In this document: one piece after another, positions 51 through 11,515 of the stretch | Layout of the letters: every line of letters begins with the position of its first letter | How positions within the stretch are numbered: the first letter of the stretch is position 1 | Source of the DNA: a virus | UHGV virus genome: UHGV-0113878 | Reading direction: 5' to 3' (one strand) | Length of the DNA stretch: 11,515 bases | Notes under the pieces: model-generated | Seen by the model: only the letters and a program-made list of their open reading frames with translations | Told to the model about the DNA's origin: nothing | Database searches by the model: none | Translations under genes and position numbers: made by a program

Positions 51-1003
51 TGGCTGATTCGAATCTCAATGAGCCAGTAATCATCCAGGCTACGCGGCTC
101 GATACATCAGTCCTTCCACGCAATATCTTCTCGCAGTCGTATCTGCTTTACGTTATTGCACAGGGTGCTGATGTTGGTAACGTGGCTAACAAGGCTAACG
201 AAGCAGGGAAGGGGGCTTATGATGCACAGGTGAAGAATGATGAGCAGGATGCCACCCTTGCAGACCATGAATCCAGAATTGCTGCTGCTGAAGCAACTCT
301 CGTCAATCATGAACATAGAATCGCAACAGCGGAAAGCACTCTTGCAGATCATGAAACAAGGATTATGGCTGCCGAAACAGAGCTGGCTGATCACGAGACG
401 CGAATTGCTGCCAATGAATCTGAGTTAGCAGACCATGATGCGCGCATAACTCAGAATACAACCGATATCGACGCACTTGATACCAGGCTCGCAGCGGCAG
501 AGGGAAGTATTTCGACGCTACAAAGCACAGTTGGTGATCACTCAACAAGAATATCTGCGCTTGAGTATGCCACCACGCGCAAGAAATCAGAGGTTGTTTA
601 CTCAGGAGTATCTGTAACCATCCCGACAGCGCCGACCAACCTTGTTAGCCTGCTGAAAACGCTCACGCCGTCATCCGGAACGTTGGCACCATTCTTCGAC
701 ACCGTTAACAACAAGATTGTTGTGTTCAACGAGAACAAAACCTTGTTCTTCAAGCTGTCGATTGTCGGGACGTGGCCCAGCGGAACCGCCAACAGGTCAA
801 TGCAGCTAACATTCTCCGGTTCTGTTCCTGACACACTGGTCAGCAGTCGTAATGCGGCGACAACAACCGACAACATCCTGTTAGCTACGTTCTTCAGTGT
901 GGATAAAGACGGCTTTCTTGCCACAAATGGCAGTACGTTAACCATTCAGTCGAATGGTGCGGCGTTTACTGCCACAACCATCAAGATAATCGCGGAGCAG
1001 TAA
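50..1003 (+). CDS. Tail needle protein (P22 gp26-like) with coiled-coil shaft and C-terminal knob domain
   Basis: The N-terminus [43 protein letters not shown]...[12 protein letters not shown] closely matches the P22 gp26 tail-needle N-terminus as I recall it. It is followed by a heptad-type repeat region (aa 69-152) and a ~160-aa beta-rich C-terminal extension, as in Sf6/HK620-type knobbed needles. SD-like AAGGA sits about 6 nt upstream of the ATG. Confidence 0.85.
254..505 (+). repeat. Six tandem 42-nt (14-codon) coding repeats inside the tail needle gene
   Basis: Translated units are [14 protein letters not shown] / [14 protein letters not shown] / [14 protein letters not shown] / [14 protein letters not shown] / [14 protein letters not shown] / [14 protein letters not shown]. 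They are in frame and diverged at the nucleotide level, with an [AV][DN]HExRI core. Confidence 0.7.
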
Positions 1004-1458
1004 TGATTCAGTTCAAACCAACGCGAAACATCGACCTGATCGAAGCAGTAGGAAATCACCCTGACATTATCGCCGGGAGCAACAACGGTGATGGATACGA
1101 CTACAAACCTGATTGCCGTTACTTTGAGGTGAACGTGCACGGGCAGTTCGGCGGCATTGTTTACTATCAGGAGATTCAGCCGCTGACATTCAATTGCCAC
1201 GCCATGTACCTGCCAGAGATTCGCGGCTTCAGCAAGGAAATCGGGCTGGCGTTCTGGCGATACATTCTGACTAACACCACTGTTCAGTGTGTCACATCGT
1301 TCGCTGCGCGCAAATTCCGCCACGGGCAGATGTACTGCGCAATGATTGGCCTTAATCGTGTAGGAACCATCAAGAAATACTTCAAAGGCGTGGATGACGT
1401 GACATTTTACAGTGCTACACGCGAAGAACTAATCGAATTCCTGAATCACGGGAGATAG
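1003..1458 (+). CDS. Phage protein at the gp14 position (between tail needle and ejection proteins); function not assignable from sequence
   Basis: A 151-aa ORF whose start overlaps the needle stop (TAATG). It keeps the gene order 26-14-7-20-16 of P22-like phages. No motif is recognisable; the protein is Cys/aromatic-rich. Confidence 0.6.
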   Translation: MIQFKPTRNIDLIEAVGNHPDIIAGSNNGDGYDYKPDCRYFEVNVHGQFGGIVYYQEIQPLTFNCHAMYLPEIRGFSKEIGLAFWRYILTNTTVQCVTSFAARKFRHGQMYCAMIGLNRVGTIKKYFKGVDDVTFYSATREELIEFLNHGR

Positions 1459-1460
1459 CC

Positions 1461-2153
1461 ATGTTATATGCATTTAAGCTGGGCAGAAAACTGCGCGGCG
1501 AGGAGCCTTATTGCCCTGAAAAAGGCGGGAAAGGTGGCAGTTCTGATAAAAGCGCAAAGTATGCATCAGAAGCTCAGAAGTATGCCGCAGACCTGCAAAA
1601 TCAGCAGTGGCAGACGATCATGAAAAACCTTGCTCCGTTCACGCCTCTTGCGGAGCAGTATGTTAACCAGCTTCAGAACCTTTCCAGTTTAGAAGGTCAG
1701 GGGCAGGCACTTAATCAGTATTACAACTCTCAGCAGTATAAAGACCTTGCAGGTCAGGCTCGTTACCAGAGTCTTGCTGCTGCGGAGGCTACGGGAGGAC
1801 TTGGTTCGACAGCCACAAGCAATCAACTGGCTACGATCGCGCCGACTCTCGGTCAGTCTTGGTTATCAAACCAGATGAGCAATTACAACAATCTGGCAAA
1901 CGTTGGGCTTGGTGCGCTGCAAGGTCAGGCAAACGCCGGGCAGACGTACGCCAACAACATGAGCAGCATTGCACAGCAAAGCGCAGCTCTTGCCGCTGCT
2001 AATGCCAACAAACCATCAAGTCTTCAGACAGCAATTAGTGGCGGAACGTCTGGTGCGATTGCCGGTGCAGGTCTTGCCAGCCTTTTGGGAACATCAACAC
2101 CTTGGGGCGCTGGCATTGGTGCTGGTATCGGATTGCTTGGCTCGTTGTTTTAA
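1461..2153 (+). CDS. Ejection (DNA-transfer / internal virion) protein, gp7-position
   Basis: 230 aa, close to the ~229 aa of P22 gp7, and in the expected position. It is Gln/Ala/Gly/Ser-rich and ends in a glycine-zipper-like hydrophobic segment (GAIAGAGLASLLG...GAGIGAGIGLLGSLF). Confidence 0.75.
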   Translation: MLYAFKLGRKLRGEEPYCPEKGGKGGSSDKSAKYASEAQKYAADLQNQQWQTIMKNLAPFTPLAEQYVNQLQNLSSLEGQGQALNQYYNSQQYKDLAGQARYQSLAAAEATGGLGSTATSNQLATIAPTLGQSWLSNQMSNYNNLANVGLGALQGQANAGQTYANNMSSIAQQSAALAAANANKPSSLQTAISGGTSGAIAGAGLASLLGTSTPWGAGIGAGIGLLGSLF

Positions 2154-2162
2154 GGGGTAATC

Positions 2163-3494
2163 ATGGCTACTTGGCAAGGATCAAATGGCGGATTGTTGGC
2201 TGGTATCGGCGGCGTCAACTCAAACGCTCCGAGCGTAAATGACATCGGCAATACGCTTCAGCTTATCAGGCAGAACAATGATATTGAGCGTTCAGGTGCT
2301 AACAATGTTGGGCTGACTGCTTTGCAAGGTCTTTCAGGTATTGCGGGTGTTTTTCAGCAGGAAAAGCAGGCTCAGCGGCAGAAAGAATTTCAGCAGGCGT
2401 ACGCTAATGCTTATGCGTCTGGTGATCGCGGTGCTTTGCGTCAGTTGGCTACTCAATATCCAGACCAGATTGAATCCGTTCGTAAAGGCATGGGATTCAT
2501 TGATGAAGAGCAGCGTAATTCTATCGGCACCTTAGCGGCTGGCGCACGCCTTGCGTCATCGTCTCCAGAAGCAATGCAATCATGGCTGCAAAACAACGCC
2601 GGTGAGTTAGCTCGTGTTGGCGTTAATCCTCATGACGTCGCTCAGATGTACCAACAGAACCCGCGGCAGTTCGGCGAATTTGTCGATCACCTGGGGATGA
2701 ACAGTCTCGGGCCAGAAAAATACTTTGACCTACAGGATAAAATGCAGGGTCGCCAGGTGACCATGCGCGGTCAGGATCTGGATTCGCAAACCGCCGCCCG
2801 GAATCAGGCAATCACAATGCGTGGGCAAGATATCCAGGCAAATTTAGGTCAGCAGCGCATTAATCTGGACGCAGAAACAAACCGCATTAACAACGAAAAT
2901 AAGCACCTTGACCGGATGCTATCAGCAGAAACTAACGACCTGAAGCGCCAGGAAATACAGAGCCGCATAGCAGCCAACAACCAGAAGTTGCAGCAGAAGC
3001 AGCAAGAGCTAAATGATGGCTACAAAGACGGCATCAACACTCTCACAACCAGCATGTTCACTCTGAACGATATCGTTAATTCTCCTGCACTTAAGAGCAT
3101 TACAGGCTTGCGTGGAGCAATCCCCAACGTTCCAGGCTCACAAGCTGCAGACACTCAGGCGCGACTTGATACCTTTAAATCCCAAGCATACCTGACAGCG
3201 GTTCAGGCCATGCGAGGCATGGGCGCACTTTCTGATGCCGAGGGCAAAAAGCTCGACCAGGCTGTTGGTTCGCTGCAGAACTCACAGAGCGAGGAGTCCT
3301 TTCGTCGCAACGCTGGCGTCATCCTGAACACGCTCAACCAGAAGCGTAATGAGGCGGTTGGTAAGTACGTTCAGCAAAACGGTATCAAGCGAGTGGAAGC
3401 GCCTCAGGCTTCTATAGATTACCTGAAGCAGCACCCCGAGCTGTCAATCGACTTCATTAATCGCTACGGATATCTTCCATCTTTGGGGCAGTAA
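2163..3494 (+). CDS. Ejection (DNA-transfer / internal virion) protein, gp20-position
   Basis: A 443-aa ORF with a good SD (AAGGGG) upstream. It is Gln/Asn-rich with an internal repeat ([VI]TMRGQD[LI]) and predicted coiled-coil character. Assignment is by size and synteny. Confidence 0.7.
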   Translation: MATWQGSNGGLLAGIGGVNSNAPSVNDIGNTLQLIRQNNDIERSGANNVGLTALQGLSGIAGVFQQEKQAQRQKEFQQAYANAYASGDRGALRQLATQYPDQIESVRKGMGFIDEEQRNSIGTLAAGARLASSSPEAMQSWLQNNAGELARVGVNPHDVAQMYQQNPRQFGEFVDHLGMNSLGPEKYFDLQDKMQGRQVTMRGQDLDSQTAARNQAITMRGQDIQANLGQQRINLDAETNRINNENKHLDRMLSAETNDLKRQEIQSRIAANNQKLQQKQQELNDGYKDGINTLTTSMFTLNDIVNSPALKSITGLRGAIPNVPGSQAADTQARLDTFKSQAYLTAVQAMRGMGALSDAEGKKLDQAVGSLQNSQSEESFRRNAGVILNTLNQKRNEAVGKYVQQNGIKRVEAPQASIDYLKQHPELSIDFINRYGYLPSLGQ

Positions 3495-5888
3495 ATGGCT
3501 AATTACCGTGATTTGTTAGAGCAGGCTGGCGCACGTTACGGTGTGCCAGAAGGGTTGATGACTGCACTGGGTGCCAAGGAGTCTTCTTACAACCCTGCCG
3601 CAGTAAGCTCCGCCGGGGCTGTAGGATTGACTCAGGTCATGCCTGGGACATGGCGTGATATGGGTTATACCGATGAGCAAATGCAAAACCCCGAATATCA
3701 GGCTGACGCTGGCGCGCGCTATCTGGCAAAGATGTACCAGCAGTTTGGTAACTGGCGTGACGCTCTTCAGGCTTATCACGACGGTCCCGGCAACGTTATG
3801 AAGGCAAAGCGTGGTGAATATACGCCAGGACCTGAAGGCCGCGGTTACGTTGATGATCGCTTTGCTCAATGGGCTGGTGACCCGGTGACAGACTCAACAG
3901 TCGAACAGCGCGCCACCTCTGCAAAGGTACATCCTCAGCAAGACCCTAACAACCCGTTTGCACAACTGGAAGTACAGTCATCCGAACAAGTATCGGCATC
4001 AGGTGTGCAGTCAGACCCAAATAATCCATTTGCTCAGATTGAGCAGCAGGCAGCCAGTCAGCAGCCACCTCAACCCGTAAGTTCTGTCGCACCGAAACCT
4101 GTTCAGCAGCAAGGCGGAATAATGTCTGACCTTGGTAATGGACTTGCTGAAACCGGGCGCGGCTTACTACAGGCAGGAATCAACGTAGCGAACATACCTG
4201 CTGAACTCACTGATGCTGTAACAAGCGCGGCGGCTTGGGCTGGCGGTAAACTCGGCATTGGCGATGGTACATATCAACCAGCGCCACGAGTAACAACGCA
4301 GGGATTAGAGCAGGACTTTGGCCTTCAGCAAGGCGCGCTGACTCCACAAACGACAGAGGGAAGGGTATTTGCTGAAGCATTGCCTTACCTCACTCCTGCT
4401 GGCGTTGAGAGAGCGGCGGTACAGGCACCAACACTTGCTGGTCGAATTGCTCAGGGGGCAACTCGCCTTCTAGCAGAAAACGCAGTTGGATCACTTGCTG
4501 CAAACAGTATGAAAGATGATGCTGAAGCACTCGCTACCGATTTAGGCGTTGGTGTGCTGGCTGGCGGTGCTATTAACGCTGCCGGACGTGGATTAGGTGC
4601 TGCTTATCGTGGCGTTCGTGGTGCTATTGCGCCAGAAGCGCAGCAGGCTATCAGATTTGCAGAGCGTGAAGGAGTTCCTCTGCACACCACAGACCTGTTA
4701 CAGCCTACTTCCCGCGTCGGGAAAATGGCGCAGACGACAGCGGAAAATATCCCCCTGGCTGGCACAAGCGGAATGAGAGCAACGCAACAGGAAGCGAGAA
4801 GCCAGTTGGTGCAGAGATTTGCTGATAAATTCGGTGAGTATGATCCAGCTGTTGTTATTGACAGCCTTAAAGCGAAAACATCAGGAATTCGTCGTGCTGC
4901 AGGGAACCGTCTTGAGCAGGTTCAGAATGCAATGGCGGGAGTCAATATCCAGCCTGCTCGAGCAATTCAGCAGATTGATACAGAAATATCTAACCTGCAG
5001 AAGCTTGGTAAGGTCGCCGATAACGAGACTATTTCAAAACTTCAGTCCTATCGTGATGAGCTTGTTCGCAATGCTGGTCCTGATGGTCCGGTAAATCTGG
5101 ATTTGAAGCAATTAAGCGATCTGCGCAGCCAGTTCAGAATGGACGTGAAGGGGGAACGACCAGTGTTACCAAACCGGTCCGATGCTGCCATTCAGCGCGT
5201 TTACAAGGCAATGACAGACGATATCAATGGTGCCATTGGTCAGAATCTTGGCAACGATACTCTCCGTAAATATCAGCAGGCCAATGCCGTCTACGCTGAC
5301 GAAGCGGCGAAACTAAAGAATACCAGGCTGAAGAATGTTCTCATGAAAGGCGACCTGACGCCGGAAGTTGTCAACAACATGCTATTCAGCAAGAACAAAT
5401 CGGAAATTAAGACGCTGTATAACTCAGTTGGTCGTGTTGGCAGGGCGCAAATGCGCAATGGCATCATTGGAAAGGCGATGGAGAAATCAGGTGGTTCCCC
5501 TGACCAGTTCCTTCGACAGCTTAACATCCTGCAAAACCAGACTGGCATCACATTTAAAGGTCAGGAAGCCGCTTATCTGAAAGGATTAAAAAACTACCTG
5601 CAATCCACGCAGCAGGCTGCAAAAGCGGCAGTAACAACACCCACAGGGCAGCAAACTATCCCGTTCATTATTGGGTATGGGACGGCAATGAACCCGGCGA
5701 CAACTGGCGCAGCAGTAAGCTACGGACTTCTTGCTCGCGCCTATGAGAGCGAGCCATTCAGAAATGCAATGCTCCGAATGGCAAACACCCCACGCGGATC
5801 AACAGCGTTTGAGAAAGCCATGCAGCAGGCACAAAAGGCAATTAACGCTATGACGCAGGGGGCTAAGTCTGATGCGTTGTCAGAATAG
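3495..5888 (+). CDS. Ejection protein (gp16-position) with N-terminal family-1 lytic transglycosylase (SLT) domain
   Basis: The N-terminal ~110 aa carry the three classic SLT motifs: AKES (catalytic Glu29, nt 3579-3581), GLTQVMPGTW, and AYHDGPGN. A linker with two DPNNPFAQ[LI]E repeats and a long Ala/Gly-rich body follow. The ATG abuts the upstream stop (TAAATG). Confidence 0.85.
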   Translation: MANYRDLLEQAGARYGVPEGLMTALGAKESSYNPAAVSSAGAVGLTQVMPGTWRDMGYTDEQMQNPEYQADAGARYLAKMYQQFGNWRDALQAYHDGPGNVMKAKRGEYTPGPEGRGYVDDRFAQWAGDPVTDSTVEQRATSAKVHPQQDPNNPFAQLEVQSSEQVSASGVQSDPNNPFAQIEQQAASQQPPQPVSSVAPKPVQQQGGIMSDLGNGLAETGRGLLQAGINVANIPAELTDAVTSAAAWAGGKLGIGDGTYQPAPRVTTQGLEQDFGLQQGALTPQTTEGRVFAEALPYLTPAGVERAAVQAPTLAGRIAQGATRLLAENAVGSLAANSMKDDAEALATDLGVGVLAGGAINAAGRGLGAAYRGVRGAIAPEAQQAIRFAEREGVPLHTTDLLQPTSRVGKMAQTTAENIPLAGTSGMRATQQEARSQLVQRFADKFGEYDPAVVIDSLKAKTSGIRRAAGNRLEQVQNAMAGVNIQPARAIQQIDTEISNLQKLGKVADNETISKLQSYRDELVRNAGPDGPVNLDLKQLSDLRSQFRMDVKGERPVLPNRSDAAIQRVYKAMTDDINGAIGQNLGNDTLRKYQQANAVYADEAAKLKNTRLKNVLMKGDLTPEVVNNMLFSKNKSEIKTLYNSVGRVGRAQMRNGIIGKAMEKSGGSPDQFLRQLNILQNQTGITFKGQEAAYLKGLKNYLQSTQQAAKAAVTTPTGQQTIPFIIGYGTAMNPATTGAAVSYGLLARAYESEPFRNAMLRMANTPRGSTAFEKAMQQAQKAINAMTQGAKSDALSE

Positions 5889-6052
5889 CTTCGCAAACAC
5901 CAGGAACGTGCAAAAACCAAATATATAGAGCGCAATATTCAACAGATCTCTTTGCATAGACTCATCTCATAATTAACAAATCATAACTGACATTAGTGCA
6001 ATGCAGGGCAAGTTGCATCTTGTTCAGCATTGCTACGTCTGGAGCAAATTAA

Positions 6053-8452
6053 ATGACAGATATTACAGCCAATGTTGTAGTGAGTATGCCTTCGCAACTC
6101 TTCACTATGGCGCGTTCTTTTAAAGCGGTTGCCAATGGCAAAATTTATATCGGTAAAATTGACACTGACCCGGTAAATCCTGAAAACCAGATTCAGGTTT
6201 ATGTGGAGAACGAAGACGGTTCTCACATTCCTGTTTCTCAACCAATCATCATTAACGCTGCTGGATATCCGGTATATAACGGGCAGATTGCCAAATTCGT
6301 AACTGTTCAAGGCCATTCTATGGCTGTATATGATGCATATGGCACTCAGCAGTTCTATTTCCCTAATGTGCTGAAGTATGACCCGGATCAGCTACGGCAG
6401 CAGTTAGAAGACCCGGATGGTGCTAAAAAATATCCCGAATTGCAGATTGCACGATGGCGTGATGACAAAGATGTTCGCGGTTGGGGGGCTATCAGTGATG
6501 GAATAACTGACGCTACTGAGGCATTCTCTAACGCAGGCTATAGAATGTTTGTTCCTGATGGCGATTTTGCAGTAAATACTCTCGAAGTTGATGTATCTTC
6601 TGTTCAAGGTATTGGGAGGATTGTTGCTGATAATGGATCTCTTATTTCAGTTTCTCGTCTACTTGAAACTGACAAACTTGTGCAGAGAAAAATGATGGAA
6701 CCTTTTTTTGGTTTTCAGGGAGAAACAAACACAGAAATTTATCCTAATGCCAGAAATGCGTTACAGGGGATCGCATATTGCCGTGTTAATGGCATTGAAA
6801 AACTATTTGTCACACAACGGCCTGTTGGGCCAACCTGGTCAGATAAAGAAAGAGTTCGTATTGTTGAGTTTAATCTTTATGATGATGGAAGGGTAGTAAA
6901 CCATGTTGCGTATTCTCCAGAATTAAACCTTGGGCACGGATTTGATCTTTCTGCCATGGTGGAGAATGGTCAAGTATATTTATATACATCAAGTGTAACC
7001 AATTCAGGTGAAGATGGGGAGTCTGCAGGCAAAGGGTTTAGTAAAATAACTTGGCGAGGGGCAGGAACAACTCAGTCTGACGTAAAAAGTTATAATGTAT
7101 GGGGGATTACTGGTAGCGGTCACCCATTTCAAGATTACAATCGTGCAGGAATTGCCATTTCTTCTGACGGTCGTCTTTTAATAATGGTTAATACACCAAA
7201 GAGTGATGCCGCTAAACGAACTGTATTTATATACGATAAAATATCAATTGATAAACTTGAAGATAAAACATTAGCAAACCCCATGTTTGTTTGGGAAATG
7301 AGCGACTCACCTTCTGAAGGCGCTTACTCTGTACAAGGTATTGCGTCTGATGGAAGATATATACATATACTTAAGGGAGGCACTAATGCTTTTGGAAAGC
7401 ATCATATCTTTACATATGATTTAACAGGTAATTTACTAAGAAAATTAGATATCGATGATGCAAGGTCGCAATATGGGCGCGATGGGTTGCTTAACCATCC
7501 AACTCTTGGGAATCCAGCCAGATTCGAGCCGGAAGGTTTAACTATTCGTGGCGAAGAAATAATTATAAGCTGCATAGAAACATGGAGGGCAGGAGCTAAT
7601 ATTGTAAACTGGCGTGGAAGAAGATGGGCTGCATCATCCATTGAGACTTCTGGAATAATTGGTGTCCCTCCATCAAATGGCTCTTATTGGGTAGAAACAA
7701 CCAAGGATGCAAATTCTGGAGACTGGAGTCCTGATACAGATTATGGATGGGGAAGTAGCTATTCTCTTGAGAAAAAGACAATTTACTCTATACGACCAGC
7801 GACTGGTAACAACGATGAGCAGAACCTTAATTCTGGCATAACCAATGCTTCAAGTAATGCAGGTGTAGATGCCGGAGAAAGCGGGCGAAATATATCATTT
7901 AGATGGCGCAATGCTTTTAATATTGTTGCATTTAGCGAACGTCTTGGTGAGTACTTCAAAGCTATTATGTATGATAATAGCTCAAGATTAAGAATATACG
8001 ATCAGCAAAACGGTAGTGATAACACTGTTTATGGCTCAATCCAGGCACTATTTACGTCATCATTTAAGGGATTGATTTTAAGGGGTAGGGGGGTATCAGC
8101 ATCAAATAGTTCCTATATTAGGTTACATTCATCTGATGATCCAAACTACCCAAATTCGATCATTGAAGGAACAAGAACAGATGGAAGTTTTTCCAGGGAA
8201 ACAGATTCAAACGGAACCACTACATTTGCATCGGACTCAGAGCACGAACCGTTGCGTATCAGAAGGGCTTCAGATGGTTTGTTGTTTGCATACGAGAAAG
8301 TAAGAGGTACAACTCTCTTTGGAATTTATAGAGGCTCCGGTTCACCTGAGGGTGTTGTGACCGCACCTCAGGGGTCAATGTACATTGATTATAATGGTGA
8401 TTGGTATCAAAAGAAAACAGGAACAGGAAATACAGGATGGGTGTTAAAATAG
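6053..8452 (+). CDS. Tailspike protein: P22/Sf6/HK620-type head-binding N-terminal domain fused to a divergent receptor-binding (probable glycan-depolymerase) region
   Basis: The N-terminal ~113 aa ([50 protein letters not shown]...VLKYDPDQ) match the conserved head-binding domain of P22 gp9 and the HK620/Sf6 tailspikes as I recall them. The remaining ~690 aa are unrelated to the P22 beta-helix. GGAG sits 8 nt upstream of the ATG. The gene is markedly more AT-rich than upstream genes. Confidence 0.9.
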
Positions 8453-8532
8453 ACTATTCTATTTTAATTTTTCCCATTAATTAATGATGGGAATCCCAAA
8501 AATTGATAATACATCATCTATTTATAACTCAG

Positions 8533-8557
8533 CCACCTCATAGTGAGGTGGTCTTTT
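8533..8557 (+). terminator. Putative rho-independent terminator after the tailspike gene
   Basis: An 8-bp perfect stem CCACCTCA/TGAGGTGG with a 3-nt loop is followed by TCTTTT. A second, weaker similar hairpin (CCACC-TTG-GGTGG + GCTTTTA) lies at 8576-8595. Confidence 0.5.
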
Positions 8558-8634
8558 ACTGTTATCCCTAAATCACCACCTTGGGTGGGCTTTTACCAAT
8601 ACCAATGACAGTATTTTTGCTGTAAGAAAGTAAC

Positions 8635-8656
8635 AATAAACCATAAATGGTTTATT
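8635..8656. promoter_or_regulatory. Perfect 10-bp inverted repeat (AATAAACCAT-AA-ATGGTTTATT), candidate operator or regulatory site upstream of the lysis cassette
   Basis: The dyad symmetry is read directly from the sequence. It lies ~55 nt upstream of the first lysis-cassette start, in an AT-rich intergenic region. Function is inferred. Confidence 0.35.
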
Positions 8657-8701
8657 ATGCTTTGTGACTTACCATTTAGGAGGTTGTAATGCATATAAAC
8701 G

Positions 8702-9112
8702 GTGGAAAACATGTCAGCCCAACTAACCAGTGAAACTTTAAATCAGTGGCTTAGCATGAGTTCTCTGGCGGCGGTGATAGCAGGAGTTCCTCCTGAGGTT
8801 GCTTTGGGGGCTTTGGCTGGAGCGGTAATTTTTGTTACCTCTGCGGTAGAGTATCCCATTCGTCGTCGTGTACTCTTGTCGATGCTTAGCTTTCTCTGCG
8901 GCCTTCTTTTTTATAAACCAGCAGCATCAATTCTTATCGGCATAGCCAGCCTGATCCCTACTATCACGCAGGACTCTTTTGAAAAAGGGATTGTTTTCTC
9001 TGCTGGTGCATTCGTGTCAGCAATCGTCGCAGTTCGAATTGGCATCTGGCTCTATCACCGTTCCGATAATCCACGCGAGTTAATTCCGGGGAGAAAAGGC
9101 GATGGTAACTAA
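8702..9112 (+). CDS. Small multi-pass membrane protein, first gene of lysis cassette (putative holin/antiholin-like); likely true start at ATG 8711
   Basis: About four hydrophobic helices and a charged C-terminal tail ([18 protein letters not shown]). GTG 8702 has no SD, whereas ATG 8711 has GGTGGA 4 nt upstream. The 3' end overlaps the next gene by 11 nt. Confidence 0.55.
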   Translation: MENMSAQLTSETLNQWLSMSSLAAVIAGVPPEVALGALAGAVIFVTSAVEYPIRRRVLLSMLSFLCGLLFYKPAASILIGIASLIPTITQDSFEKGIVFSAGAFVSAIVAVRIGIWLYHRSDNPRELIPGRKGDGN

Positions 9113-9410
9113 TGAGCTTGTTTTGCTTATCACCAATGCACTTATTTGTACTGGCATAGCAATTCGTGTTGTCACATTCCGGCGTAACGGTTCACAACAT
9201 CGAAGATGGGGTGGCTGGCTTGCTTATTTTCTGATTGTTGCTGCGGCCAGTATTCCAGTTCGTGCTGTCTATGCAATCTGGCTACGCACGCCAATGGCTG
9301 TGGATTTATCTGAGGTCATTATCAACGCTGTCATGCTTGCTGCGGTTCTTAAAACTCGCGGTAACGTTGTTCAGATTTTCAAAATAACGAGGTCTAAACA
9401 TGGAGATTAA
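9102..9410 (+). CDS. Putative class-I-like holin (3 TM, N-out/C-in predicted)
   Basis: 102 aa with three hydrophobic segments, a positively charged TM1-TM2 loop (RRNGSQHRR) and a charged C-terminus ([19 protein letters not shown]). It lies immediately upstream of, and overlapping, the endolysin gene. Confidence 0.6.
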
Positions 9411-10029
9411 ACAATTCCAACGAGCTGCTGGTATTAGCGAGGTGCTGGCCGCACGCTGGTTCTCGCATATAACTTCTGCGATGAAAGAGTTTGATATCAG
9501 CAAACCAGAAGATCAGGCAATGTTTATTGCTCAGGTCGGGCATGAGTCTGGAGGCTTCACCCGGTTGCAGGAAAATTTCAACTACAGCGTCAGCGGACTG
9601 GCGAGCTTTGTCAGGACTGGACGCCTCACCCAGGGACAGGCTAATGCACTGGGGCGCCGTGCTGGTGAACCACCATTGCCACTTGAGCGCCAGCGCGCGA
9701 TCGCAAATCTGGTTTACAGCAAACGCATGGGTAACAATGCTCCCGGCGATGGCTGGAATTACCGTGGGCGCGGGCTTATCCAGATTACCGGTTTGAATAA
9801 CTATCGTGACTGCGGAAACGGTCTGAAAGTTGACCTGCTGGAGAATCCTGAACTGCTGGCGCAGGACGAATACGCGGCTCGTAGCGCGGCGTGGTTCTTT
9901 GCCAGCAAAGGATGCATGAAGTATACCGGTGATATTGCACGTGTAACTCTGATTATCAATGGTGGCCGGAACGGCATCGACGACCGGCGCGCGCGGTACG
10001 TCACTGCCAGTAAGGTGCTGGCTATATGA
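9400..10029 (+). CDS. Endolysin, glycoside hydrolase family 19-like (chitinase-class-I-type phage lysozyme)
   Basis: 209 aa with GH19-type motifs: GHESGGF...ENFNY (Glu49 at nt 9544-9546, Glu58) and [15 protein letters not shown]. There is no N-terminal signal or SAR hydrophobic segment. GAGG lies 7 nt upstream of the ATG. Size and motifs resemble the GH19 endolysins of Salmonella phages such as SPN1S, as I recall them. Confidence 0.88.
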
Positions 10030-10508
10030 TCTTAGCATTCGTAAAAGCATATCAGAAACAACTACTTATCGTGGTGATGCTTGCTGCTCTGTTCATCGTC
10101 GGAGTGGTTGCCTGGAATATACACGGCAGTCGCCAGTACGATGCCGGGTATGCGCAGGCGGAAGAAGACCGCAAAGACGAAGAAGACAAAGTTCGTCAGT
10201 ACTACGAACAGGAGAAAGTGACCAATGAACGTGAAGCGCAGCAGAGAATCGACCAGGCGCGCAATGATGCTCTTGATGCTGCCGCTCGCGCTGGCAGGTT
10301 GCAGCAACAACTCTTTGCCATCCGTGAGCAGCTCAGGCAGTATAACGCCATTGTCGGCGCTGGGACGTCAGCCGCAGACACCGGAGTTTTGCTTGCCGAC
10401 GTGCTCAGCAAATCTCTCGAGAGAAACAGACAACTGGCAGAGTATGCTGACCGGGCAGCCGAAGCCGGAAGAGTCTGCGAAAAACAGTATGACACCCTGA
10501 CAAGATAG
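10026..10508 (+). CDS. i-spanin (Rz-like): N-terminal TM anchor plus periplasmic coiled coil
   Basis: The start overlaps the endolysin stop (ATGA). An N-terminal hydrophobic helix ([18 protein letters not shown]) is followed by a charged, Gln/Arg/Glu-rich helical region. A complete lipoprotein ORF is embedded in the +1 frame. Confidence 0.8.
10225..10500 (+). CDS. o-spanin (Rz1-like outer-membrane lipoprotein), fully embedded in the i-spanin gene in the +1 frame
   Basis: Signal peptide with lipobox LALAG|C (Cys26, nt 10300-10302) and a Pro/Ser-rich mature region of ~66 aa. AGGAGA lies ~8 nt upstream of the ATG. The embedded layout matches the lambda Rz/Rz1 paradigm. Confidence 0.75.
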   Translation: MNVKRSRESTRRAMMLLMLPLALAGCSNNSLPSVSSSGSITPLSALGRQPQTPEFCLPTCSANLSRETDNWQSMLTGQPKPEESAKNSMTP

Positions 10509-10663
10509 CATGGCATTTTTCATGGTACTGATTTCCGGTGACGGTATATAAAACGGTACGGTGAAAATCATGTTGCAGGAAGTTGTTATCAGTCAATTGG
10601 TTATGGTATCCGTAAATAATTGAGTGGGAATGATTTTGATCCCTGCACTATGAATGAACAAAA

Positions 10664-10690
10664 CCCTCTGTTACTACAGAGGGTTTTTTA
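10664..10690. terminator. Bidirectional rho-independent terminator between convergent transcription units
   Basis: A 7-bp GC-rich stem CCCTCTG/CAGAGGG with loop TTACTA is flanked by an A-tract upstream (ACAAAA) and a T-tract downstream (TTTTTTA). It sits between the end of the + strand lysis cassette and the 3' end of the minus-strand gene. Confidence 0.7.
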
Positions 10691-10727
10691 TCTTCAAGAA
10701 TTATAGGCTTGAAGTTACTTACATCGA

Positions 10728-11267
10728 TTAATTAAACCAGCTGTCCGATTTGTTCTCTTCTGCTTTGCCCACGCTTTTCATCAGATCTCGACCGCCCTCA
10801 GTCATATTCCTGTTTGCGTCAGCTTCAGATTGCACCACATCGGTTTGCGCAGCTTTGTGCTTCAGTTCCTGATCGATAAATTCGTTTTCTCGCTTAACGC
10901 GGGCTTCTTCTTTCGCCAGCGCCAGTTTTTGTTTCTGAATCTCTAAGCTGCGTAGCTCATCTTGATAACTTTGATCGCGTTTTTTGTCCGCAGAGGCTTC
11001 GGCGTCCAGTTTATCCTGACGAGCTTTCTTATTTGCCGCTGCCGTTGTCGCTCTTTTGTTAGCGGCGGCCTGGGCGTTTGCGCGACGTTGCTTCTCTTGC
11101 TGGATTTCCCTGTTGCGCTCCGCGACCCATTCGTCATGCTGCCTTTGCTCTTCATTTTTACCTTGCTGTTCCGCTTCTGCGACAGCAGAGAGTTGATCCT
11201 GCAATGATGAGGCGATAGCCGGATAGCTTAAGGAAGCTAAGATGGCGCAAAGAAAAACTTTCTTCAT
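10728..11267 (-). CDS. Secreted/periplasmic highly charged coiled-coil protein of unknown function
   Basis: 179 aa with an N-terminal signal peptide (MKKVFLCAILASLSYPAIA|SS) followed by a Lys/Glu/Gln/Ala-rich predicted helical region. The SD (AGGAG) is correctly spaced. It is convergent with the phage genes. Confidence 0.7.
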   Translation of the reverse strand: MKKVFLCAILASLSYPAIASSLQDQLSAVAEAEQQGKNEEQRQHDEWVAERNREIQQEKQRRANAQAAANKRATTAAANKKARQDKLDAEASADKKRDQSYQDELRSLEIQKQKLALAKEEARVKRENEFIDQELKHKAAQTDVVQSEADANRNMTEGGRDLMKSVGKAEENKSDSWFN

Positions 11268-11282
11268 GACTCCTCCTGATTA

Positions 11283-11515
11283 TTAGCTCTTTTCAGGACA
11301 TTTGGTATTTGGCTGAATACGCGTTTCGTTATACGTCGTGGTAATAACAACGGCTAAACCTGTCGTAAACTGGCACTCTTTACCCACCTGGGTGGAGGTA
11401 TACACTTTGGTGCCTTCCTTATACGTTAGAGAAACACCTTCCACTAAGGTTTTATCATTCACCATAGAACCCGCTGCCGCGCCAACAGCTCCGCCGCCAA
11501 CTGCACCTAAGCATC
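11283..11515 (-). CDS. Glycine-zipper motif protein (partial; 5' end lies beyond the window), probable envelope protein
   Basis: The minus-strand frame is open to the window edge and translates to ...CLGAVGGGAVGAAAGSMVNDKTLVEGVSLTYKEGTKVYTSTQVGKECQFTTGLAVVITTTYNETRIQPNTKCPEKS*. A G/A-rich glycine-zipper segment precedes a beta-rich C-terminus. The ORF track's Met at 11465 is internal. The stop lies 15 nt upstream of the 179-aa gene start, so the two form an operon. Confidence 0.55.
   Translation of the reverse strand, partial: CLGAVGGGAVGAAAGSMVNDKTLVEGVSLTYKEGTKVYTSTQVGKECQFTTGLAVVITTTYNETRIQPNTKCPEKS

What the first reader, a model, noticed from the sequence alone, without database searches (positions are those of the whole stretch)
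3495..5888. Ejection protein carrying an N-terminal lytic transglycosylase domain
The gp16-position protein has all three family-1 SLT motifs in its first ~110 residues (catalytic Glu in AKES, GLTQVMPGTW, AYHDGPGN). At 797 aa it is roughly 190 aa longer than the ~609-aa P22 gp16 I recall, which is not known to me for an SLT motif. This suggests a fusion that delivers a peptidoglycan-cutting enzyme with the ejected proteins to breach the wall during genome delivery.
Basis: partly seen in the sequence, partly recalled or inferred. Interest (0 to 1): 0.6.

Follow-up and report, generated by a model that had tools for sequence, protein, structure and literature searches.

The report
Wall-cutting enzyme on P22-like ejection protein
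A P22-like prophage of E. coli encodes a DNA-ejection protein with a cell-wall-cutting (lytic transglycosylase) domain fused to its front end, as in phage T7; it is real and under selection but already common and annotated in databases, so it is moderately interesting.

Summary
ORF 3495-5888 (+) encodes 797 aa. Residues 7-110 match Pfam SLT (E=2.8e-25), and E29 aligns with the 'ES' Glu of E. coli Slt70 and of T7 gp16. Residues ~108-797 are a P22-gp16/Sf6-gp13-type ejection protein (PHROG 770, E=1e-239). The gene follows the gp7 and gp20 homologues.

- The body is Sf6-type. Its first ~93 residues are replaced by a 205-residue SLT-plus-linker module.
- That module belongs to a ~1.4-kb mosaic cassette (window ~2700-4109) that also encodes the C-terminal ~265 residues of gp20.
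- The two halves co-occur in 69-70 of 5,426 complete E. coli genomes and in the same 9 phage records.

The SLT is under strong purifying selection (dN/dS 0.02-0.06).

It is not new to databases. The identical protein sits in a 1,295-member cluster, and NCBI names it 'lytic transglycosylase domain-containing protein'. About 3% of gp16-family clusters carry an SLT. However, a 2022 review says the transglycosylase activity is absent from P22-like phages, and no paper I could search describes it. Catalysis and virion location are inferred, not shown. Verdict: new member of a known kind; interest about 0.35.

The parts
3495..5888 (+). Whole gene: SLT + Phage_P22_gp16 ejection protein, 797 aa. The stop codon of gp20 (TAA, ending at 3494) is followed directly by its ATG.
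3495..3878 (+). N-terminal lytic transglycosylase (SLT, family-1/GH23-like) domain, residues 1-128. The Pfam match covers residues 7-110.
   Evidence: Pfam E=2.8e-25; Slt70 alignment; T7 gp16 residues 10-139 at 28% identity, E=2e-8; fold search; dN/dS 0.02-0.06
3579..3581 (+). Codon of E29, the predicted catalytic glutamate in the 'ES' motif.
   Evidence: Aligned with the Glu of Slt70 'RQES' and with T7 gp16 E37 by counting in the alignment. Invariant in all homologues aligned, T7 included.
3879..4109 (+). Low-complexity Q/P/S-rich linker, residues 129-205. It contains two copies of DPNNPFAQ(L/I)E at residues 150-159 (nt 3942-3971) and 174-183 (nt 4014-4043).
   Evidence: Motif positions; composition; motifs retained in Cronobacter, Klebsiella and Kosakonia homologues; low model confidence; dN/dS 0.13-0.16
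4110..5885 (+). Sf6-gp13-type gp16 body, residues 206-797. Predicted all-helical; only a moderately hydrophobic Gly/Ala-rich stretch at about residues 345-370.
   Evidence: 93-95% nucleotide identity to Sf6 gene 13 from window ~4107; PHROG 770; PF26808; hydropathy; 1,120 family clusters
2163..3494 (+). gp20 homologue (443 aa), the periplasm-spanning channel protein.
   Evidence: Pfam Inj_translocase E=1e-67 and PHROG 2534 E=6e-194
2700..4109 (+). Mosaic cassette: gp20 residues ~180-443 plus gp16 residues 1-205 (SLT + linker), inherited as one block.
   Evidence: Nucleotide similarity to Sf6/VSe13 is lost between 2699 and 4107, while Sf101 matches continuously from 1001 to 4112. Protein identity profile. 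Both halves are present and abutting in 69-70 E. coli genomes and the same 9 phage records. The same block stands out against Cronobacter and metagenome loci.
1461..2153 (+). gp7 homologue (230 aa), the first ejection protein of the operon.
   Evidence: Pfam P22_gp7 E=6e-134
8702..10508 (+). Separate lysis cassette (two holins, GH19 endolysin, Rz-like spanin). This is context showing that the SLT is not the phage's endolysin.

Best explanation
This is the third ejection (E) protein of a P22-like (Lederbergvirus-type) prophage of E. coli: a chimaera of a lytic transglycosylase and a gp16-type inner-membrane channel protein.

Proposed mechanism:
1. The protein is made in the cytoplasm without a signal peptide and packaged into the capsid with gp7 and gp20. 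This is inferred from P22 and Sf6.
2. At infection it is expelled through the tail into the periplasm.
3. There the N-terminal SLT domain (catalytic E29) refolds and cuts MurNAc-GlcNAc bonds locally. This widens the peptidoglycan mesh so that the gp20 tube can cross the wall and the gp16 body can reach and span the inner membrane.
4. The ~80-residue flexible linker tethers the enzyme to the channel.

Because the SLT+linker is always co-inherited with the periplasm-spanning C-terminal part of gp20, it probably works docked on, or close to, that part of the tube. This would resemble T7 gp16-N sitting on the gp15 tunnel.

By analogy with T7 gp16 (my recollection of Moak & Molineux 2000), the activity is probably conditionally helpful, for example with cold or stationary-phase cells that have highly cross-linked wall, and not essential. 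That would explain why most gp16 homologues lack it.

Shown here: domain identity, motifs, fold, fusion architecture, synteny, selection, cassette linkage, distribution. Inferred: virion location, ejection, catalysis, timing, docking.
For: Domain identity: Pfam SLT E=2.8e-25. Slt70 and T7 gp16 alignments put E29 on the 'ES' glutamate. Foldseek returns only lytic transglycosylases at the top, plus 7eyb chain I 'core proteins' at rmsd 3.4 A.

Ejection-protein identity: PHROG 770 E=1e-239. PF26808 Phage_P22_gp16. 93-95% nucleotide identity to Sf6 gene 13. The gp7-gp20-gp16-tailspike gene order is conserved in E. coli, Klebsiella, Cronobacter, a metagenome contig and Murrayvirus IME_EC2.

Not an artefact: the identical protein lies in a 1,295-member cluster, and full-length homologues of 72-86% identity occur in several enterobacterial genera.

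Selected function: dN/dS of the SLT is 0.020-0.063, against 0.13-0.16 for the linker. E29, S30, G44, Y94, G97 and EGRxY are invariant out to T7 gp16.

Route to the wall: no signal peptide and no cysteines. A separate holin/endolysin/spanin cassette exists.

Cassette. The left breakpoint corresponds to P22 gp20 residue ~183, next to the PP1|PP2 boundary (185/186). PP2 is the barrel that crosses the peptidoglycan, and the gp16 N-terminus (1-205) is predicted to contact the gp20 C-terminus (preprint 10.64898/2026.09.03.749273). The same preprint favours gp16 entering before the gp20 channel is complete.

T7 precedent: gp16-N transglycosylase plus 'molecular tape' on the gp15 tunnel (PMC8954989). 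Table of virion-associated lysins (PMC5380687).
Against: There is no experimental evidence for this protein or any close relative. No zymogram, virion proteomics or mutant was found.

Most gp16-family proteins, including the well-studied P22 and Sf6 ones, manage without an SLT. The activity therefore cannot be generally required.

The docking idea rests only on co-inheritance of adjacent DNA, which physical linkage alone could partly explain.

The full-length structure model was too poor to say anything about domain arrangement.

Foldseek E-values for the small domain are modest (about 5e-3) although probability is 1.00.
Confidence: 0.8

Rival explanations
1. The SLT domain is retained as a non-catalytic peptidoglycan-binding anchor. 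It would position or stabilise the trans-envelope channel at the wall without cutting it.
For: Strong purifying selection and co-inheritance with the wall-crossing part of gp20 would also fit a binding role. Most gp16 proteins need no wall cutting.
Against: The catalytic Glu-Ser pair and the other family-1 motifs are invariant across homologues down to 28% identity, including T7 gp16. The T7 gp16 domain is listed as a lytic transglycosylase in PMC5380687. Nothing in the sequence suggests loss of activity.
Confidence: 0.08
2. The SLT acts late in infection as an auxiliary lysin, helping host lysis from within instead of helping entry.
For: Lytic transglycosylases can serve as phage endolysins (general knowledge). 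PHROG hits include families labelled 'endolysin'.
Against: The gene is in the ejection-protein operon, translationally abutting gp20. It is fused to a gp16 body. A complete holin / GH19-endolysin / spanin cassette lies elsewhere in the window. The closest SLT relatives in phages are N-termini of internal virion or DNA-transfer proteins.
Confidence: 0.05
3. The fusion is a by-product of prophage decay or of gene calling (two genes run together) and has no function of its own.
For: The protein database does contain obvious deletion fusions on the same body, with needle, gp7, gp20 or NinG N-termini (P0112, P0115, P0119, P0120).
Against: The SLT form is intact and of constant length in a 1,295-member cluster. 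It is present in isolated phages (IME10, phiKp_30, Sf101, Huey, Dewey, APC_JM3.2). It is conserved at 72-86% identity in other genera and collinear at 29% identity in P0260. dN/dS is 0.02-0.06.
Confidence: 0.01

Closest known systems
Phage T7 gp16 (internal virion protein D): N-terminal lytic transglycosylase on an ejection protein
   Same: The SLT domain sits at the extreme N-terminus of the last and largest ejection protein of a podophage. Residues 2-119 align with T7 gp16 residues 10-139 (28% identity, E=2e-8), and E29 falls on T7 E37. The two share an 'EGRxY' motif beyond the Pfam core. There is a structural match to 7eyb chain I. In both, the SLT is followed by an extended non-globular segment, which in T7 is the 'molecular tape' binding gp15 (PMC8954989).
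   Different: The rest of the protein shows no detectable similarity to T7 gp16. The protein is 797 aa against 1,318 aa. The body belongs to the P22 gp16 family, which a published survey found never to co-occur in one phage with the T7 IVP-D family (PMC4819975). Here the SLT is an optional module present in a minority of family members.
Sf6 gp13 / P22 gp16 (Phage_P22_gp16, PF26808; PHROG 770)
   Same: The body (residues ~206-797) is 93-95% identical in DNA to Sf6 gene 13 and 34% identical in protein to P22 gp16. It occupies the same position after gp7 and gp20.
   Different: P22 gp16 and Sf6 gp13 have no SLT. Here the first ~93 residues of the Sf6 protein are replaced by a 205-residue SLT+linker, and the upstream gp20 C-terminus is of a different type.
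Sf101 gp13 and its relatives in Huey, Dewey and APC_JM3.2 (911 aa in Sf101; annotated 'transglycosylase' / 'lytic tail fiber protein')
   Same: The gp20-C + SLT + linker cassette is essentially identical (98-99% DNA identity, window 1001-4112).
   Different: After residue ~205 the Sf101 protein continues with a different gp16 body, whose start aligns with the P22 type and which is longer. The same SLT cassette therefore sits on at least two body types.
Bacterial family-1 lytic transglycosylases (Slt70, MltE, MltC, MltD; GH23)
   Same: Sequence motifs, the catalytic Glu and the predicted fold all match.
   Different: There is no signal peptide or lipobox. The domain is fused to a phage ejection protein, so it would be delivered from outside by the virion and not exported by the cell.

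Membership tests
SLT / family-1 lytic transglycosylase domain (Pfam PF01464, GH23) | Profile score above the curated gathering threshold over most of the model | tested here: met
   88.6 bits against a cut-off of 21.3; model positions 2-110 of 117
SLT / family-1 lytic transglycosylase domain (Pfam PF01464, GH23) | Catalytic glutamate in an E-S motif, aligned with the Glu of known enzymes | tested here: met
   E29-S30 aligns with 'ES' of Slt70 (1qsa) and with T7 gp16 E37-S38. It is invariant in all homologues. That these are the catalytic residues of Slt70 and T7 gp16 is my own knowledge.
SLT / family-1 lytic transglycosylase domain (Pfam PF01464, GH23) | Family-1 motifs II (G-L-M-Q-like) and III (A-Y-N-x-G-like) | tested here: met
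   GLTQVMPGT at residue 44 and AYHDGPGN at residue 93, aligned with GLMQIMPGT and AYNAGPG of Slt70
SLT / family-1 lytic transglycosylase domain (Pfam PF01464, GH23) | Lysozyme-like (goose-type) helical fold | tested here: met
   A model of residues 1-135 (pLDDT 75) matches MltE, Slt, MltD, MltF and LtgA with probability 1.00 and TMq 0.5-0.77. This is model-level evidence only.
SLT / family-1 lytic transglycosylase domain (Pfam PF01464, GH23) | Cleaves MurNAc-GlcNAc bonds with formation of 1,6-anhydroMurNAc | not testable with these tools
   Needs an enzyme assay and muropeptide analysis
P22 gp16 / Sf6 gp13 ejection-protein family (PF26808, PHROG 770) | Full-length profile match of the body | tested here: met
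   PHROG 770 E=1e-239, residues 108-797 on profile positions 3-666 of 668. PF26808 is precomputed for the identical protein P0001 and is named Phage_P22_gp16.
P22 gp16 / Sf6 gp13 ejection-protein family (PF26808, PHROG 770) | Position directly after the gp7 and gp20 genes and before the tailspike region | tested here: met
   gp7 at 1461-2153, gp20 at 2163-3494, this gene at 3495-5888, tailspike at 6053-8452
P22 gp16 / Sf6 gp13 ejection-protein family (PF26808, PHROG 770) | Packaged in the virion, ejected before the DNA, and forms the channel across the cytoplasmic membrane | not testable with these tools
   Known for P22 gp16. Inferred here by homology.
T7 gp16 (internal virion protein D) family | N-terminal lytic transglycosylase domain | tested here: met
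T7 gp16 (internal virion protein D) family | Homology across the large C-terminal body of gp16 | tested here: not met
   BLASTP finds only residues 2-119 significant. The PHROG 342 match is confined to profile positions 14-217 of 1235. The protein works like T7 gp16-N but is not a member of that family.
Phage endolysin of a lysis cassette | Encoded with holin and spanin genes | tested here: not met
   The lysis cassette lies at 8702-10508 and has its own GH19 endolysin. This gene is in the ejection-protein operon.

The most novel reading that the evidence does not exclude
The gp20-C / SLT / linker cassette may be a co-adapted structural unit. The SLT domain would dock, through the paired DPNNPFAQ(I/L)E linker motifs, on the outside of the gp20 barrel exactly where it crosses the peptidoglycan. 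That would reproduce the 'wings plus molecular tape' arrangement of T7 gp16-N on gp15. If so, P22-like and T7-like ejectosomes share a deeper architecture than their sequences suggest. The natural SLT-plus and SLT-minus variants of one gp16 body would then offer a clean system for asking how short-tailed phages get a wide tube through the cell wall.
Probability: 0.2. Interest if true: 0.55.

Novelty: new member of a known kind. Interest (0 to 1): 0.35.

Why it matters
How P22-like phages pass a DNA channel through the peptidoglycan is unsettled. The only wall-degrading activity listed for P22 virions is attributed to the neck protein gp4 (PMC5380687). [quoted passage not shown] The 2026 in-situ structure describes a gp20 barrel crossing the wall without mentioning any enzyme.

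This locus shows that the review's generalisation is too broad. A selected, apparently intact SLT rides on a gp16-type protein in about 1.3% of complete E. coli genomes, in several isolated phages, and in other enterobacterial genera.

The same gp16 body occurs with and without the SLT. The SLT also travels with the wall-crossing part of gp20. Together these give a natural experiment for testing when wall cutting matters for entry and which channel parts contact each other.

There is also a practical point. NCBI applies the 'lytic transglycosylase domain-containing' name to thousands of Sf6-type proteins that lack the domain.

Tried and rejected
- Full-length AlphaFold model on a 10-sequence alignment: mean pLDDT 46.7, pTM 0.31. 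It was too poor for a fold search or for judging domain arrangement. I used it only to note a helical body and a low-confidence linker.
The model was built from 5 sequences instead.
- Casjens & Thuman-Commike 2011 (PMID 21310457) and Casjens & Grose 2016 (PMC4969182) are the papers most likely to have noted SLT-bearing gp16 types. Neither is held, so prior description in the literature cannot be excluded.
- Eight literature searches found no paper describing an SLT on a P22-like gp16. The Sf101 genome paper does not mention it.
- The local Pfam copy has no model for the gp16 body. I relied on PHROG 770 and on precomputed PF26808 labels.
- The idea that Sf6 gp13 or VSe13_013 also carry an SLT, suggested by the VSe13 product name, was rejected: no Pfam hit and no counterpart in the alignment.
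- The idea that the window is simply the strain 7/2 prophage was rejected for the right-hand end, where the context differs after the tailspike.
- The ~95-aa insert in P0099 and P0106 has no Pfam match.
- dS was saturated for several region/locus pairs, so dN/dS is reported only where it could be computed.
Full report
**What is there**

The window is the late-operon end of a P22-like (Lederbergvirus-type) phage genome. It encodes:
- a tail needle with an Sf6-type knob (50-1003)
- a gp14-like protein (1003-1458)
- gp7 (1461-2153)
- gp20 (2163-3494)
- the gene in question (3495-5888)
- a tailspike with a P22-type head-binding domain (6053-8452)
- a lysis cassette (8702-10508)

The gene in question starts at an ATG directly after the TAA stop of gp20 and encodes 797 aa.

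**Checking the observation**

Pfam SLT matches residues 7-110 at E=2.8e-25, covering almost the whole model. A PDB sequence search aligns residues 4-102 with the catalytic domain of E. coli Slt70 and puts E29-S30 on the enzyme's E-S pair.

A domain-only AlphaFold model (pLDDT 75, pTM 0.72) retrieves only lytic transglycosylases at the top of a Foldseek PDB search: MltE, Slt, MltD, MltF and LtgA, with query TM-score up to 0.77. It also retrieves 7eyb chain I 'core proteins' at rmsd 3.4 A, which I take to be T7 gp16.

Residues 108-797 match PHROG 770 'DNA transfer protein' at E=1e-239. Current Pfam annotation of the identical database protein is PF26808 (Phage_P22_gp16) plus PF01464.

P22 gp16 (609 aa, NC_002371) has no SLT hit even at E<=1. 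Sf6 gp13 and Salmonella phage VSe13_013 (both 665 aa) have none at E<=0.01. In a six-way alignment these three have nothing opposite residues 1-~123. The SLT is therefore an addition and not a conserved feature of gp16.

**Anatomy of the fusion**

The body is Sf6-gp13-type and not P22-type: 89% protein identity to Sf6 gp13 overall, against 34% to P22 gp16.

| Compared with | Window regions with nucleotide similarity | Identity |
|---|---|---|
| Sf6 | 556-2699 and 4107-6391; none between | 96% and 93% |
| Sf101 | 1001-4112 continuous, then lost | 98% |

The variable block is thus window ~2700-4109. It encodes gp20 residues ~180-443 plus residues 1-205 of this protein (SLT 1-128, linker 129-205). 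At the protein level, gp20 is at least 93% identical to Sf6 gp12 up to residue 150. It falls to 10-67% from residue 181 onward.

The two halves of the block are linked wherever I could look:
- The gp20-C segment is found in 69 complete E. coli genomes and the SLT segment in 70 (67 each at >=80% coverage).
- In genomes listed in both searches the coordinates abut.
- The same nine phage records carry both: IME10 x3, Sf101 x2, Huey, Dewey, APC_JM3.2 and phiKp_30.

The same block stands out independently against a Cronobacter prophage. There, gp20 residues 179-443 are 96% identical and the SLT 98%, against 73% and 78% for the flanks. Nucleotide identity rises at gp20 residues ~141-180 and falls again after gp16 residue ~240. 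The block is less sharply visible against a metagenome contig.

Downstream of the block the body varies. It is Sf6-type here and in IME10 and phiKp_30, and a different, longer type in Sf101, Huey, Dewey and APC_JM3.2.

**Is the domain functional?**

Nei-Gojobori dN/dS for the SLT is 0.020 (Cronobacter), 0.063 (metagenome) and 0.048 (Klebsiella aerogenes). The linker gives 0.13-0.16 and the body 0.078 where computable.

E29, S30, G44, Y94, G97 and an EGRxY motif (residues 114-118) are invariant across E. coli, Klebsiella, Cronobacter, the metagenome contig, Murrayvirus IME_EC2 and T7 gp16. This argues for a working active site.

The protein has no signal peptide, no strongly hydrophobic segment and no cysteine. 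The SLT could therefore reach the wall only by ejection from the virion, or after membrane damage at lysis. A separate complete lysis cassette with a GH19 endolysin is present.

**How it probably works**

For P22, a 2026 in-situ cryo-EM preprint (10.64898/2026.09.03.749273) reports the following:
- gp7 and gp20 form the extracellular and outer-membrane parts of the channel.
- gp20 residues 186-255 form the barrel that crosses the peptidoglycan.
- gp20 residues 256-435 form a plinth on the inner membrane.
- gp16 forms the channel across that membrane.
- The gp16 N-terminal region (1-205) is predicted to contact the gp20 C-terminus.
- The authors favour gp16 entering before the gp20 channel is complete.

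The left edge of the cassette maps to P22 gp20 residue ~183, which is at the start of the wall-crossing barrel.

The most economical model has three steps:
1. The protein is ejected into the periplasm.
2. Its SLT cuts glycan strands locally, so that the gp20 tube can pass and the body can reach the inner membrane.
3. The SLT+linker works next to, perhaps docked on, the co-inherited part of gp20.

This parallels T7, where gp16 residues 1-156 (the transglycosylase) form 'wings' on the gp15 tunnel and residues 157-228 act as a 'molecular tape' (PMC8954989). The two conserved DPNNPFAQ(I/L)E motifs in the linker are candidates for such contacts, but that is speculation.

Most family members lack the domain. 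By analogy with what I recall of T7 gene 16 mutants, the activity is probably helpful only under some conditions.

**Comparison with known systems**

Against T7 gp16, only residues 2-119 align (28% identity, E=2e-8). The rest shows nothing. The protein works like T7 gp16-N but belongs to the P22 gp16 family.

The SLT's nearest relatives outside Lederbergvirus are again N-termini of podophage ejection proteins:
- the IME_EC2 'DNA transfer protein' (1,007 aa, P22-type gene order, 67% identity)
- the sortkaff protein (61%)
- then, at ~35%, 'internal virion protein D' of T7-like Klebsiella phages and 'internal core proteins' of Kuravirus-type phages

**Distribution and age**

The Sf6-type body occurs in 354 of 5,426 complete E. 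coli genomes, and the SLT module in 70.

A search of 1.84 billion cluster representatives with the body found 1,120 clusters at E<=1e-3. Of the best 150, 115 are at least 560 aa long. An N-terminal SLT is present in this protein's cluster, in P0260 (802 aa, Pfam SLT 5.5e-20) and weakly in P0238. P0183 is detected only by my own HMM.

P0260 is collinear with the window protein at 29% identity across residues 6-769, and lies on a 42.6-kb contig. The fusion is therefore rare, about 3% of clusters, but old or recurrent.

**Novelty**

The exact protein is in public databases, in a cluster of 1,295 sequences. In strain 7/2 it is WP_087503468.1, named 'lytic transglycosylase domain-containing protein'. 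Sf101 gp13 was deposited as 'transglycosylase'. So the domain call itself is not new.

In the literature I could search, no paper describes it. [quoted passage not shown] A 2017 review lists only gp4 as a lysin of P22. I could not read Casjens & Thuman-Commike 2011, which may mention it.

I classify it as a new member of a known kind: a lytic domain carried on a podophage ejection protein. The cassette linkage with gp20 is the most interesting new detail.

**Limits**

Catalysis, virion location, ejection and any infection phenotype are inferred. The full-length model was unusable. The cassette's functional coupling is suggested only by co-inheritance.

Noticed in passing
window 8453-11515: Directly after the tailspike comes a lysis cassette (two holins, GH19 endolysin, Rz-like spanin) and a DUF5384 gene on the minus strand. 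These are ~94% identical to phage TL-2011b and 88-93% identical to phiV10-type podophages, which I recall as epsilon15-like. In E. coli strain 7/2, whose prophage is 100% identical over the three segments searched (window 2700-4112 and 4170-5888), a 799-aa head-binding-domain protein at the same spacing is followed instead by an esterase, DUF1796, intS and tRNA-Arg. So there is an unusual mosaic junction near 8453-8700.
   Followed up: partly
P0116, P0117; L004:2722-4719 (VSe13_013): NCBI names 665-aa Sf6-type gp16 proteins 'lytic transglycosylase domain-containing protein' although they have no SLT domain. Pfam finds PF26808 only for the clusters and nothing for VSe13_013. The two clusters hold about 3,500 sequences, so this looks like a name carried over from the fused form.
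   Followed up: yes
L001:5001-7394 (phage IME10, NC_019501): The 797-aa gene is intact in IME10 (97.7% nucleotide identity, Pfam SLT E=2.9e-25). However, the RefSeq and GenBank records annotate no CDS there.
   Followed up: yes
window 3942-3971 and 4014-4043 (residues 150-159 and 174-183): There are two copies of DPNNPFAQ(L/I)E in an otherwise variable Q/P/S-rich linker. Both are retained in Cronobacter, Klebsiella and Kosakonia homologues. IME_EC2 has two N(I/V)FDQF motifs instead, one before and one after its SLT. These may be short linear docking motifs.
   Followed up: partly
P0099, P0106; L010:6001-8661: Some SLT-gp16 homologues (880-886 aa) carry an extra ~95-residue insert between linker and body ('...GNIDIHNRPVVKNPDGSISTVRSMS...GREVLIPTV...'). 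It has no Pfam match and its function is unknown.
   Followed up: partly
P0112, P0115, P0119, P0120: Some proteins have the N-terminus of the tail needle, gp7, NinG or gp20 joined in frame to the same gp16 body near the 'QQ(Q)(S/G)G(I/F)(M/I)SDLG' junction. They probably reflect deletions in decaying prophages or chimeric assemblies.
   Followed up: no
P0239 and P0128: Other gp16-family members carry different extras. A Pseudomonas protein (1,043 aa) has a C-terminal InPase domain (PF18823). Pectobacterium proteins (~1,360-1,390 aa) have a ~790-residue N-terminal extension with no known domain. This suggests gp16-type ejection proteins serve as carriers for varied cargo.
   Followed up: partly
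window 6053-8452: The tailspike is 799 aa with a P22-type head-binding domain (residues 1-113). Its receptor-binding part matches only a PHROG of unknown function (phrog_16355), plus a sub-threshold Pfam hit to a 5-bladed beta-propeller receptor-binding domain. Its specificity is unknown.
   Followed up: no
window 3495-5885: The 797-residue protein contains no cysteine and no strongly hydrophobic segment (maximum Kyte-Doolittle 19-residue mean 1.36, at residues 345-363). This fits a protein that must pass unfolded through the tail and refold in the periplasm.
   Followed up: partly
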